A stretch of DNA of 64,000 bases from Escherichia coli (lineage in GTDB: Bacteria > Pseudomonadota > Gammaproteobacteria > Enterobacterales > Enterobacteriaceae): assembly GCF_013315695.1 (NCBI RefSeq), contig NZ_CP054353.1; one strand, 5' to 3'. The notes under the pieces were generated by a model. That model saw nothing but the letters and a program-made list of their open reading frames with translations, ran no database searches and was not told the DNA's origin. Made by a program: the position numbers and the translations under genes. This document shows, one piece after another, positions 41,089 through 45,573 of the stretch. Within the stretch, counting starts at the first letter, position 1, and every line of letters begins with the position of its first letter.

Positions 41089-41165
41089 CGGCGAGTAGCG
41101 CAGCTTGGTAGCGCAACTGGTTTGGGACCAGTGGGTCGGAGGTTCGAATCCTCTCTCGCCGACCA
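41089..41165 (+). tRNA. proM: tRNA-Pro (TGG)
   Basis: CGGCGAGTAGCGCAGCTTGGTAGCGCAACTGGTTTGGGACCAG...CGCCGACCA. Confidence 0.95.
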
Positions 41166-41171
41166 ATTTTG

Positions 41172-41196
41172 AACCCCGCTTCGGCGGGGTTTTTTG
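41172..41196 (+). terminator. Intrinsic terminator of the tRNA operon
   Basis: CCCCGC TTCG GCGGGG hairpin followed by a T-run. Confidence 0.85.
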
Positions 41197-41311
41197 TTTT
41201 CTGTGCATTTCGTCACTTTCCCTTCGCAATAAACGCCCGTAATAACGCATTGCGCCACGGTATGATTTCGCCCTTAACTTATTGAAGGATGACTTCAGGC
41301 AAGGAGCGACC

Positions 41312-42648: not shown

Positions 42649-44304
42649 TTAATCAGATTTAATCTGCGCGCGCGGCGGATATTTTTTCAGGATCTCCATA
42701 TACGCGTGCATTTCGGTCTGTAGCGGTACACCCATTGGGATATGGCGCACGCCGATAGAGTCGCTTTCCTGCGGATCGGTGTACAGGTTAAACACCGACG
42801 ATCCCGCCGTTTGCATTACTGTGCCGGTGAATCCACCCTGATACCCGCTCTGGGTATACGCGTACGGTTGCTGGATCAGGACGTGATACTTGAACTCATC
42901 CATACGCACAGCAGAAAGTTTACCGTTGAGGAAGTAGTGCTCGGCCTTACGGTTAGACTGACCATTTGTTCCCAGGAAGAAAGATGTCTGGTCCACACCA
43001 TCGATAAAGGTGGTTTTCGGTACTAAATTCGCTACTTTCGCCCCAGGATGCCCCGCCAGATCCAGCGCCGTAGGGAAGAGATCCGCCAGATCGACAATGC
43101 CGTCAGATTTACGCGGTTGGATCATGCCTTTCCAGTAAACGAAGGTTGGCACACGAACGCCGCCTTCCCATGTAGAACCTTTCGCACCGCGGAACGGCGT
43201 GCGACCGTGCGGCGGTACTTCCGCTTCCGGTCCGTTATCGGAGGTAAAGACGATTAGCGTGTTATCCAACTGACCATTTTTCTCCAGTGCTTTATACAGA
43301 TTGGCGAAGATATCGTTCATCTCCACCATGCAGTCGCCGTAAGAGGTGCGCGCCGGAGAGCTACCCGCATATTTCGCATTTGGGTAGTTATCGAAGTGAC
43401 AGCCGCGAGTGCCGTAGTAGAGGAAGAAAGGCTTATCGCTCTTCGCCATCTTGTCGAGGAACTTAACGCCATATTCCATCCAGCGTTGATCCAGGTCTTC
43501 CATATATTTCGGCGTAATGTCGGCAATGGCTTCCTGTTCACCGCCGCGCACGGCATGAACGTCATCTTTGCTGAATGGCAGTTTTTGGATGTATTCAGAA
43601 CGATCCGGGCTCAGGGCGACTTCCGGGTTGACGTGAACATCACGCCATTCGGTATACATATCGGATACCGAGTTAAAGCCGCGGAAATCATCAAAGCCAA
43701 CGTTCTGCGGCTGCGACTCTTTGTTTTCCCCCATATGCCATTTCCCGATGGCCTGAGTGACGTAGCCCTGATCGTGCAGCAACTGCGGCAGAGTGGTTAA
43801 CCCTTGCAGACCGCCCGGTTGCCCGTACATTGGCGGCATCAGAATGCCGTGGTGGATGGAGTATTGTCCGGTAAGAATCGTGGCGCGGGTTGGGGAAGAA
43901 CTCGGTTGAGAATACGCCGAAGTTAAAATCAGCCCCTGGCTGGCAACGGCGTCGATATCTGGTGTAGGGTTACCCACCGCCACGCCGCCGCCGTTAAAGC
44001 CAACATCCATCCAGCCCACATCATCCAGCAAGAAAACAACCACGTTCGGTTTCTTACCGGTTTTTTTCTCAAGTTCTGCCAGCTTCTGCTGGGTTTCTTT
44101 GTCTTGTGCAGGATGCTGCATCACCGGCATCATGTTGTCGGCAATAGTGGTCGCCGGTTTAACCAGATACTGGTTTGGGTGATCGTATCCGGCAAAGCCT
44201 TTGCGTGCGGTGGCGGTTGACGGGGTATCTGCTGCGTTGGCCATGAGTGGAAGAGCGGCGGCGACAGCTACAACAAGAAGTTTGGGTGAAAACGAAAATT
44301 CCAT
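42649..44304 (-). CDS. aslA: Arylsulfatase, Ser-type (SxPxR formylglycine motif), with signal peptide
   Basis: 551-aa ORF; SSPTR sulfatase signature; N-terminal signal peptide. Confidence 0.93.
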
Positions 44305-44712
44305 GCAAAATGCTCCGGTTTCATGTCGTCAAAATGTTGACGTAATTAAGCATTGATAATTGAGATCCCTCTCCCTGACAGGATGATTGCATAAATAATA
44401 GTGATGAAAATAAATTATTTATTTATCCAGAAAATGAATTGGAAAATCAGGAGAGCGTTTTCAATCCTACCTCTGGCGCAGGTGATATGTAAGGCGGTGA
44501 TGTTATATCGCGTTGATTATTGATGCTGTTTTTAGTTTTAACGGCAATTAATATATATGTTATTAATTGAATGAATTTTATTATTCATTATATATATGTG
44601 TAGAATCGTGCGCAGGAGAAATATTCACTCAGGAAGTTATTACTCAGGAAGCAAAGAGGATTACAGAATTATCTCATAACAAGTGTTAAGGGATGTTATT
44701 TCCCGGTTCTCT

Positions 44713-44722
44713 GTGGCATAAT
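44713..44722 (+). promoter_or_regulatory. Extended -10 element (TGg CATAAT) of the glmZ promoter
   Basis: TG at 44714-44715 and CATAAT at 44717-44722, 6 nt upstream of the glmZ 5-prime end; overlaps a degenerate sigma54-like TGGCA. Confidence 0.55.
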
Positions 44723-44728
44723 AAACGA

Positions 44729-44935
44729 GTAGATGCTCATTCCATCTCTTATGTTCGCCTTAGTGCCTCATAAACTCCGGAATGACGCAGAGCCGTTTAC
44801 GGTGCTTATCGTCCACTGACAGATGTCGCTTATGCCTCATCAGACACCATGGACACAACGTTGAGTGAAGCACCCACTTGTTGTCATACAGACCTGTTTT
44901 AACGCCTGCTCCGTAATAAGAGCAGGCGTTTTTTT
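44729..44935 (+). ncRNA. glmZ: Small regulatory RNA GlmZ
   Basis: GTAGATGCTCATTCCATCTCTTATGTTCGCCTTAGTGCCTCATAAACTCCGGAATGACGC... ending in the CGCCTGCTCCGTAATAAGAGCAGGCG T7 terminator; about 207 nt. Confidence 0.9.
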
Positions 44936-45533
44936 ATGACCGGATAAAGAACTGGTTACGTCGCTCCTGGGTCATCGGTTGCGCGTTTAACACTCTTACA
45001 AGAGAGCCTACCGTGACGATGGGAAGAAACGGATTCTCTTCTATTCCGCATAGATCGCGCCCGCAACGAGCAGCGGTATCTTCAACCAGCTCTTCTAACT
45101 CGACTGCGTCGCTCACCAAATCCAGATCATCGTCCAGTATATCATCGGCTTTCAGTGGCAGTGGGTAATCGATATAGCCGTTTCCTTGCAAGGTATCCCA
45201 CACCGCACGAATCACCCATGTATCTACGGTGTAGGTGTCAAATTCGCGGGCGAACTGGCAAATGGAGCGTCCCCGACGTTTATCTGCCATGATTCGGTAC
45301 TTCTTGAGGATCTTGATTTTTTCCTGCTTCGCCGCAGCTATCAGATATCCAATAAAAAGTGTTAACCAGAAGATGAATGTATTGCCCGTACGTACAAAGG
45401 AAATAATCAACCAACTTACGCCAGCCAGAGCGGCACATATCAACAAGATTAAAAAGAGCGTTGCCCGAAAAGGAGTAATTTCATGCGATGGCAAGCGGAA
45501 AAGATAGCGGGACGGCGTGCGCAATTTTGACAT
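44934..45533 (-). CDS. Hypothetical two-TM membrane protein with acidic C-terminal domain (199 aa), function unknown
   Basis: ORF with ATG start at 45533; two hydrophobic helices (about residues 24-46 and 52-68); weak RBS; stop overlaps the glmZ terminator T-run; start lies 6 nt past the hemY terminator. Confidence 0.45.
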   Translation of the reverse strand: MSKLRTPSRYLFRLPSHEITPFRATLFLILLICAALAGVSWLIISFVRTGNTFIFWLTLFIGYLIAAAKQEKIKILKKYRIMADKRRGRSICQFAREFDTYTVDTWVIRAVWDTLQGNGYIDYPLPLKADDILDDDLDLVSDAVELEELVEDTAARCGRDLCGIEENPFLPIVTVGSLVRVLNAQPMTQERRNQFFIRS

Positions 45534-45538
45534 CCTGG

Positions 45539-45573
45539 TAAAAAAATATCGCCTCTGAACGAGGCGATATAGA
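45539..45573 (-). terminator. Intrinsic terminator of the hemCDXY operon
   Basis: ATATCGCCTC / GAGGCGATAT hairpin followed on the minus strand by a 7-T run. Confidence 0.8.

What the first reader, a model, noticed from the sequence alone, without database searches (positions are those of the whole stretch)
44627..44735. glmZ driven by an extended -10 sigma70 promoter with a degenerate sigma54-like element and upstream direct repeats
The 6 nt before the glmZ 5-prime end are preceded by TGgCATAAT (extended -10) with no good -35. The same bases contain TGGCA, reminiscent of a sigma54 -24 element. About 80-100 bp upstream lies a 10-bp direct repeat ACTCAGGAAG (44627-44636 and 44642-44651). This fits the E. 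coli-type arrangement in which glmZ has lost sigma54/GlrR control that is retained in some other enterobacteria; the direct repeats may be a remnant or a distinct regulator site.
Basis: partly seen in the sequence, partly recalled or inferred. Interest (0 to 1): 0.3.

Follow-up and report, generated by a model that had tools for sequence, protein, structure and literature searches.

The report
Known constitutive glmZ promoter of E. coli
This is the ordinary, already published sigma-70 promoter of the E. coli small RNA gene glmZ; the short repeat upstream of it is a young, poorly conserved duplication with no detectable role.

Summary
The window is a non-K-12 E. coli. glmZ runs 44729-44935 (Rfam, 218 bits). 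Its promoter is ATGTTA(44693-98)-N15-TGg-CATAAT(44717-22), then 6 nt, then +1 at G44729. From about -114 to +1 it differs from K-12 by one base, at -28.

This promoter was dissected in K-12 by Gopel et al. 2011 (PMC3045617). They found a single constitutive sigma-70 promoter. DNA upstream of -40 is dispensable. Mutations in the -35 and the -10 reduce or abolish expression. Deleting rpoN or glrR has no effect, and GlrR does not bind the -424..+32 fragment.

Two parts of the interpretation fail:
- TGGCA is not a -24 relic. Aligned on +1 with 11 relatives, it lies over the ancestral -12 box (TGTGCAATAAT became TGTGGCATAAT). The true -24 position reads CCCGGT.
- The ACTCAGGAAG repeat resembles no GlrR site (TGTC-N10-GACA). 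It sits in dispensable DNA and is only weakly non-random. It is lost in E. albertii, where this stretch is the least conserved part of the spacer.

One addition: in this sample the GlrR enhancer is absent wherever aslA lies next to glmZ, which suggests it was replaced rather than eroded.

Verdict: already known; low interest.

The parts
44729..44935 (+). glmZ (sraJ/ryiA) small RNA gene; +1 is G44729
   Evidence: Rfam RF00083, 218.4 bits, full-length match to model positions 1-214. 100% identical to the K-12-like strain 8A.
44717..44722 (+). -10 hexamer CATAAT (-12..-7)
   Evidence: Read from the sequence. Identical to the K-12 promoter, where mutating it abolished expression (PMC3045617). Conserved in E. 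albertii.
44714..44716 (+). TGg extended -10 motif (TG at -15/-14). Together with 44717-18 it spells TGGCA, which lies over the ancestral sigma-54 -12 box
   Evidence: +1-anchored table: E. coli TGTGGCATAAT against the group-II consensus TGTGCAATAAT. Salmonella has TGGCACGTTATGTGCAAT (PMC3844500).
44693..44698 (+). -35 hexamer ATGTTA (3 of 6 to consensus, 18-bp spacer)
   Evidence: Read from the sequence. Published as ATGTTA-N15-tggCATAAT. Its mutation drastically reduced expression. It sits at the same position as nTGnAA in relatives.
44702..44708 (+). Position of the ancestral sigma-54 -24 box (-27..-21). It now reads CCCGGTT, with no match to TGGCACG
   Evidence: 0 of 7 matches to the consensus; no sigma-54 consensus hit here.
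44627..44636 (.). Direct repeat copy 1, ACTCAGGAAG (-102..-93)
   Evidence: E. albertii has GCTCAGGAAA here.
44642..44651 (.). Direct repeat copy 2, ACTCAGGAAG (-87..-78)
   Evidence: E. albertii has GTGTGTGAAG here, so this copy is not conserved outside E. coli.
44901..44937 (+). glmZ intrinsic terminator (11-bp stem, 8-nt loop, T-run)
   Evidence: (I2), and the 3' end of the Rfam alignment.
42649..44304 (-). aslA, the divergent upstream neighbour. In this sample its presence next to glmZ goes with absence of the GlrR enhancer
   Evidence: PGAP annotation of the identical record. tblastn across 32 loci compared with the enhancer-site scan.
41163..41210 (+). proM terminator. This is the last DNA shared with the ancestral proM-glmZ spacer before the aslB-aslA segment starts
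   Evidence: Local alignment with the Enterobacter and Lelliottia proM-glmZ spacers: 45 nt, z about 19, and weak beyond that.

Best explanation
The interval holds the constitutive sigma-70 promoter of E. coli glmZ and part of the dispensable spacer upstream of it.

RNA polymerase with sigma-70 uses three elements: a weak but required -35 (ATGTTA), an 18-bp spacer, and a TGn-extended -10 (TGgCATAAT). It starts at G44729. Neither sigma-54 nor GlrR/QseF takes part.

The -17..+1 core descends from the ancestral dual sigma-54/sigma-70 glmZ promoter, TGTGCAATAATATACGn|G. The letters TGGCA were made by changes inside the old -12 box, so their likeness to a -24 box is accidental. The -24 box is gone.

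The roughly 230-bp enhancer carried three GlrR sites in the sequences examined here, and IHF sites according to Gopel et al. I infer that it was removed when the aslB-aslA segment came to lie between the proM tRNA gene and glmZ.

The ACTCAGGAAG pair is most likely a lineage-specific 15-bp microduplication, or a templated patch, in the fastest-evolving part of the AT-rich spacer. That spacer is flagged for H-NS in published genomic SELEX tables. The repeat has no role in glmZ transcription.

Shown: promoter identity and function (published K-12 experiments on near-identical DNA), absence of sigma-54 and GlrR motifs, and non-conservation of the repeat.
Inferred: common descent of the core, replacement of the enhancer by aslBA, and the origin of the repeat.
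For: - Identity with K-12: one difference from about -114 to +1.
- Published K-12 results (PMC3045617):
  - The promoter is ATGTTA-N15-tggCATAAT.
  - DNA upstream of -40 is dispensable, and -35 and -10 mutations reduce or abolish expression.
  - Deleting glrR or rpoN, or overexpressing glrR, has no effect.
  - GlrR does not bind -424..+32.
- In EHEC, qseF and qseB mutants do not change glmZ expression (PMC3903284).
- Core comparison: E. coli matches the 11-species consensus at 13 of 16 defined positions in -17..-1. That includes 6 of the 7 positions not needed for a -10 or TG motif, and 0 of 7 in the -24 box.
- Enhancer sites: most of the sigma-54-type Enterobacterales sampled have two or three GlrR-type sites, at about -246, -214 and -151 in Enterobacter and its near relatives. 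None is found, at up to 1 mismatch, in E. coli, E. albertii, Kluyvera, Pseudocitrobacter or Superficieibacter. In E. coli none is found even at up to 2 mismatches.
- These five taxa are exactly those with aslA next to glmZ.
- Enterobacter and Lelliottia have proM 297-298 bp upstream of glmZ, with the enhancer in that spacer.
- E. coli shares only the first 45 nt after proM with that spacer.
- Repeat:
  - It is weakly non-random.
  - The 35-nt block has one place in nearly every E. coli genome (median 1, maximum 2) and is exact in 4956 of 5426 genomes.
  - Against E. albertii, the two 25-nt bins covering it are the least conserved of the spacer: 12/25 and 15/25, against 81% overall.
Against: - The K-12 experiments covered a limited set of conditions, so a condition-specific regulator acting upstream of -40 is not excluded.
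- The core similarity spans only 17 bp. Part of it is forced by shared sigma-70 function. A whole-spacer local alignment with Enterobacter is not significant (z about 0-1), in line with the paper's statement that the two groups 'could not be aligned'.
- The link between aslA and enhancer loss rests on 5 taxa. Neither Salmonella nor Klebsiella pneumoniae was in my sample.
- The Citrobacter freundii group lost the enhancer without aslA: its proM-glmZ spacer is only 145 bp.
- I have no outgroup to say whether E. coli gained the second repeat copy or E. albertii lost it.
Confidence: 0.85

Rival explanations
1. The two ACTCAGGAAG copies are a binding site for an unidentified regulator. It would act on glmZ or on the divergent aslA gene under conditions not tested so far, such as anaerobiosis, host contact or relief of H-NS silencing.
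For: - The repeat is exact, and a repeat this long is found in only about 2% of shuffles of the spacer.
- The block is identical in 4956 of 5426 E. coli genomes.
- The published genomic SELEX table marks the spacer with HNS (PMC3946193).
Against: - A 15-bp period puts the two copies on opposite faces of the helix, which is unusual for direct-repeat regulators. This rests on general knowledge.
- Copy 2 is absent in E. albertii, and this is the least conserved part of the spacer.
- The region is dispensable for glmZ promoter activity.
- The block occurs at a single place in nearly every genome, so there is no regulon-like family.
- It lies 323-347 bp from the aslA start codon.
- Three other repeats of the same size occur in the window.
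Confidence: 0.08
2. The promoter keeps a residual, degenerate sigma-54 site (the TGGCA). That site would still bind sigma-54 holoenzyme and modulate glmZ, for example by competing with sigma-70.
For: - TGGCA is present, and overlapping sigma-54/sigma-70 promoters do compete at glmY and at Salmonella glmZ.
Against: - The GC lies at -13/-12, and the nearest upstream GG is at -24/-23. That is 11 bp from first G to the G of GC, not 12, and the context is CCCGGT.
- 6 of the 11 specified consensus positions mismatch, and there is no hit at up to 3 mismatches.
- Deleting rpoN has no effect on the E. coli fusion, whereas the Salmonella fusion rises.
- The genome-wide E. coli sigma-54 mapping paper contains no mention of glmZ (0 occurrences). 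I did not open the paper.
Confidence: 0.02
3. The repeats are the start of a long aslA leader. It would be transcribed from a divergent promoter lying back to back with the glmZ promoter: TTAACA-18-TGTAAT on the minus strand, 44689 to 44660. The repeats would then act at the RNA level, where CUUCCUGAG occurs twice and looks like an anti-Shine-Dalgarno sequence.
For: - Shimada et al. list TTAACA-18-TGTAAT as the predicted aslA promoter in this spacer.
- I located it at 44689 to 44660 on the minus strand, with the predicted start just before copy 2 (sequence).
Against: - It is a computational assignment under a SELEX peak.
- The -10 has G where the critical A(-11) should be, which is why the scan did not list it.
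- In E. albertii the -10 reads TGCAAC (read off).
- I found no transcription-start data.
Confidence: 0.04
4. The repeat lies inside a translated small ORF: 44596-44679, 27 aa, MCRIVRRRNIHSGSYYSGSKEDYRIIS.
For: - The ATG ORF is present in both the window and K-12.
Against: - There is no Shine-Dalgarno sequence upstream of the ATG.
- In E. albertii the frame stops after 17 codons (read off).
- Residues 5-8 differ between the two E. coli strains.
- The exact peptides are not in the 15-billion-protein collection. That is weak evidence, because short ORFs are rarely called.
Confidence: 0.01

Closest known systems
E. coli K-12 glmZ sigma-70 promoter (Gopel et al. 2011, NAR 39:1294; group III of their classification)
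   Same: Same gene and same locus (aslA-glmZ-hemY), with the same -35, spacer length, TGg-CATAAT and +1. There is one base difference from about -114 to +1, at -28.
   Different: Nothing of functional note. This strain carries an extra ~600-bp segment with a hypothetical ORF downstream of glmZ, which does not touch the promoter.
Dual sigma-54/sigma-70 glmZ promoters of Salmonella, Enterobacter and Citrobacter (group II), and E. coli glmY
   Same: The -17..+1 core is colinear (TGTG..ATAAT A.ACG. then GTAGATGCTC). The TG of the -35 is at the same position and the start site is the same.
   Different: E. coli glmZ has no TGGCAC at -27..-22 and its GC is shifted by 1 nt. It has no GlrR sites and, according to Gopel et al., no IHF sites. 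The upstream neighbour is aslA instead of the proM tRNA gene.
GlrR/QseF activator binding sites (TGTC-N10-GACA, three copies)
   Same: Both are repeated short motifs upstream of a glmY/glmZ-type gene.
   Different: The E. coli motif is a direct repeat of ACTCAGGAAG with period 15 at -102..-78. GlrR sites are 18-bp inverted repeats at about -246, -214 and -151. There is no sequence similarity and no GlrR binding.

Membership tests
Sigma-70 promoter with extended -10 | -10 hexamer close to TATAAT, ending 5-8 nt before the start | tested here: met
   CATAAT (5 of 6) at 44717-22, 6 nt before G44729.
Sigma-70 promoter with extended -10 | TG dinucleotide one base upstream of the -10 hexamer | tested here: met
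   TG at 44714-15, then g, then CATAAT. Conserved in E. albertii and, with a 7-nt distance to the start, in Kluyvera.
Sigma-70 promoter with extended -10 | -35 hexamer 16-18 bp upstream | tested here: met
   ATGTTA, 3 of 6, with an 18-bp spacer. It is weak against the consensus, but published mutagenesis shows it is required.
Sigma-70 promoter with extended -10 | Activity depends on these elements in vivo | not testable with these tools
   Taken from PMC3045617, measured on K-12 DNA that differs from this window by one base from about -114 to +1.
Sigma-54 (RpoN) promoter | GG at -24 and GC at -12 with fixed spacing (TGGCAC-N5-TTGCW) | tested here: not met
   No match with up to 3 mismatches at 44700-44728. 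The -27..-21 stretch reads CCCGGTT against TGGCACG in relatives.
Sigma-54 (RpoN) promoter | Upstream enhancer with binding sites for an activator (here GlrR, TGTC-N10-GACA) | tested here: not met
   No site with up to 2 mismatches in the 424-bp spacer. Two or three sites are found in most of the sigma-54-type Enterobacterales sampled.
Sigma-54 (RpoN) promoter | Expression depends on rpoN and the activator | not testable with these tools
   Published: no effect of deleting rpoN or glrR in K-12, nor of deleting qseF in EHEC.
GlmZ sRNA (Rfam RF00083) | Score above the family's gathering threshold, over the full length, with a terminator | tested here: met
   218.4 bits against a threshold of 60, model positions 1-214. 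Terminator found.
Regulator site made of direct repeats | Repeat conserved in related species more than its flanks | tested here: not met
   Against E. albertii the repeat region scores 12/25 and 15/25, against 81% for the whole spacer, and copy 2 is lost. No counterpart is seen in Kluyvera or Pseudocitrobacter.

The most novel reading that the evidence does not exclude
The 15-bp-period ACTCAGGAAG pair could be an E. coli-specific binding site for a so far unknown regulator or anti-silencer. It would act on the H-NS-associated aslA gene, or on glmZ, under conditions never assayed.

Separately, and more likely true but of modest interest: in this sample, every species with aslB-aslA next to glmZ lacks GlrR control of glmZ. 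This suggests the control was lost in one step, when a gene-pair insertion replaced the enhancer, rather than by gradual decay.
Probability: 0.07. Interest if true: 0.3.

Novelty: already known. Interest (0 to 1): 0.08.

Why it matters
It matters little. The promoter, its independence from sigma-54 and GlrR, and the contrast with Salmonella and Yersinia were established experimentally in 2011, and this window repeats the K-12 sequence.

Two refinements are useful for annotation:
- The TGGCA should not be read as a -24 relic. It is the mutated -12 box of the ancestral dual promoter.
- In the genomes sampled here, loss of the GlrR enhancer goes with aslB-aslA lying between proM and glmZ. That is a concrete, testable account of how the glmY/glmZ regulon was rewired in Escherichia and a few other genera.

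Tried and rejected
- The repeat finder did not report the 10-nt repeat. I checked it by eye and with a script.
It still gave 32 Enterobacterales loci, 31 of which yielded a glmZ match, but no Salmonella, Klebsiella pneumoniae or E. fergusonii. That leaves no named outgroup for the polarity of the repeat.
- Whole-spacer local alignment of the E. coli aslA-glmZ spacer with the Enterobacter and Lelliottia spacers was not significant. Only the +1-anchored core comparison is informative.
- A possible relic of the first GlrR site next to proM (CGTCACTTTCCCTTCGCA at 41212, in the orthologous position) matches only 5 of 8 half-site bases. I do not claim it.
- I searched E. coli genomes for the E. albertii version of the repeat block and found no match.
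- The small-ORF readings were rejected. The 40-aa TTG ORF is interrupted in K-12. The 27-aa ATG ORF lacks a Shine-Dalgarno sequence and is truncated in E. albertii.
- The supplementary alignments of the 2011 paper are not held.
- Resemblance of TACTCAG to a NarL heptamer was recalled from memory only. It was not tested and is not claimed.

Full report
**Where we are.** The window is E. coli. The 636 bases around the finding match 5425 of 5426 complete E. coli genomes. They are 100% identical to isolate AF3 and 96.5% identical to K-12-like strains. The gene order is argX-hisR-leuT-proM, aslB, aslA (42649-44304, minus strand), glmZ, an extra hypothetical ORF, hemY, hemX. Rfam places GlmZ at 44729-44935 with 218 bits over the whole model. 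An 11-bp-stem terminator follows at 44901-44930.

**Observation check.**
- TG-g-CATAAT is at 44714-44722. Six bases (AAACGA) follow, then G44729.
- TGGCA is at 44714-44718.
- ACTCAGGAAG is at 44627-36 and 44642-51, which is -102..-78, with a period of 15.

On chance, three results matter.
- TGGCA occurs 234 times in the window.
- The sigma-54 consensus TGGCAC-N5-TTGCA has no hit with up to 3 mismatches anywhere near the promoter.
- Exact 10-nt direct repeats 10-30 nt apart occur four times in the window, against 1.3 +/- 1.0 in shuffles. Within the 424-nt spacer alone, 96 of 5000 shuffles contain one. The repeat is real but only weakly beyond chance.

**What is already known.** From about -114 to +1 the window differs from K-12 by a single base, at -28. 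Published K-12 experiments therefore apply. Gopel et al. 2011 (PMC3045617) report the following.
- The promoter is ATGTTA-N15-tggCATAAT.
- 5' deletions show that DNA upstream of -40 is dispensable. Mutating the -35 reduces expression drastically, and mutating the -10 abolishes it.
- Deleting glrR or rpoN, or overexpressing glrR, has no effect.
- GlrR does not bind a -424..+32 fragment, which includes the repeats. It does bind the Salmonella and Yersinia fragments.

In EHEC, qseF and qseB mutants likewise leave glmZ unchanged (PMC3903284). The claim of 'no good -35' holds only against the consensus.

**The TGGCA.** I extracted the glmZ upstream region from 31 Enterobacterales genomes found by a pattern scan and lined them up on +1. 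Eleven Enterobacteriaceae with sigma-54-type promoters give this consensus: nTGnAA at the -35, TGGCACG at -27..-21, then TGTGCAATAATATACGn before GTAGATGCTC. The published Salmonella site, TGGCACGTTATGTGCAAT, fits it (PMC3844500). E. coli reads ATGTTA ... CCCGGTT ... TGTGGCATAATAAACGA.
- E. coli matches 13 of the 16 defined consensus positions in -17..-1. That includes 6 of the 7 positions that a -10 or TG motif does not require (-17, -16, -6, -4, -3, -2). By a hand binomial estimate this has a chance probability of about 0.004, assuming 0.3 per position.
- E. coli matches 0 of 7 positions in the -24 box.

The GC of TGGCA lies at -13/-12. So TGGCA is the ancestral -12 box (TGCA) with its GC displaced by one base. 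It is not a -24 element. E. coli glmY shows the intact arrangement, TGGCACagttacTGCATAAT. Upstream of -17 the resemblance is not significant, and whole-spacer alignments fail (z about 0-1). This agrees with the paper's remark that the two promoter groups cannot be aligned.

**How the enhancer was lost (inference).** Most of the sigma-54-type species sampled have two or three TGTC-N10-GACA sites. In Enterobacter and its near relatives they lie near -246, -214 and -151. E. coli has none, even with 2 mismatches. E. albertii, Kluyvera, Pseudocitrobacter and Superficieibacter have none at up to 1 mismatch.
- The five taxa without a sigma-54 box and without sites are exactly the five in which aslA lies directly upstream of glmZ.
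- In Enterobacter and Lelliottia the neighbour is the proM tRNA gene, 297-298 bp away. The enhancer fills that spacer.
- In E. coli, only the first 45 nt after proM (its terminator) are still shared with that spacer (z about 19). Then the aslB flank begins.

The simplest reading is that the aslB-aslA segment replaced the enhancer and the -24 box, leaving the -17..+1 core.

Loss has also happened in another way. Citrobacter werkmanii and C. youngae have only 145-146 bp between proM and glmZ and have no GlrR sites. This account rests on few taxa, and neither Salmonella nor Klebsiella pneumoniae was in my sample.

**The direct repeat.**
- It bears no resemblance to a GlrR site.
- It lies between where the third GlrR site and the promoter would be.
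- It sits in DNA that is dispensable for promoter activity.
- The 35-nt block occupies one place in nearly every E. coli genome and is exact in 4956 of 5426. That is ordinary within-species conservation.
- In E. albertii, copy 1 is GCTCAGGAAA and copy 2 is GTGTGTGAAG. The two 25-nt bins covering the repeat are the least conserved of the spacer: 12/25 and 15/25, against 81% overall. The -49..-25 bin scores 23/25, and TGTGGCATAAT is invariant.
- Kluyvera and Pseudocitrobacter show no counterpart.

The differences in copy 2 are clustered. That points to a single local event, such as a slippage duplication or a templated patch, in one of the two lineages. I could not determine which lineage changed. 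I therefore read the repeat as a young microduplication in fast-evolving spacer DNA that the published genomic SELEX table marks with HNS (PMC3946193).

**Rivals.**
- A condition-specific regulator site cannot be excluded, but conservation and helical phasing argue against it.
- A divergent aslA promoter predicted from SELEX (TTAACA-18-TGTAAT, 44689 to 44660 on the minus strand) would start transcription just before the repeats. It has G at the critical -11 position and is degenerate in E. albertii.
- Two small ORFs overlap the repeat. One is broken in K-12. The other has no ribosome-binding site and is truncated in E. albertii.
- Residual sigma-54 binding is contradicted by the sequence and by the rpoN data.

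**Verdict.** The TGGCA and repeat ideas are not supported. Novelty: already known. Interest: low.

Noticed in passing
window 44934-45573: A ~600-bp segment between glmZ and hemY is absent from K-12. It carries a minus-strand ORF (199 aa as listed; PGAP aa as a hypothetical protein) whose 3' end overlaps the glmZ terminator. It has no Pfam or NCBIfam match. It is present in 689 of 5426 E. coli genomes, as two alleles about 88% identical to each other.
   Followed up: partly
L003 2288-3001 (E. coli O9:H10 strain Res13-Lact-PEB21-38-A): An IS1 element abuts glmZ at position +7. It deletes the promoter, the first 6 nt of glmZ and most of aslA. This is a natural glmZ promoter knockout, or a case of IS-driven expression.
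   Followed up: partly
L014 and L117 (Citrobacter werkmanii, C. youngae): The proM-glmZ spacer is only 145-146 bp, against 297 bp in Enterobacter, and it has no GlrR sites. C. werkmanii still has a sigma-54-like core (TGGCATgcgttgTGC), while C. youngae has lost it (ACCGCA...TGTA). This is an independent loss of GlrR control that does not involve aslA.
   Followed up: partly
window 44540-44600: A very AT-rich stretch contains a 9-bp inverted repeat, CAATTAATA / TATTAATTG. The published genomic SELEX table marks the aslA/glmZ spacer with HNS.
   Followed up: no
window 41212-41229: CGTCACTTTCCCTTCGCA lies 50 nt after proM. That is the orthologous position of the first GlrR site in Enterobacter (TGTAGTCCTTCCCCGACA, 52 nt after proM). 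It may be a degenerate relic, but only 5 of 8 half-site bases match.
   Followed up: partly
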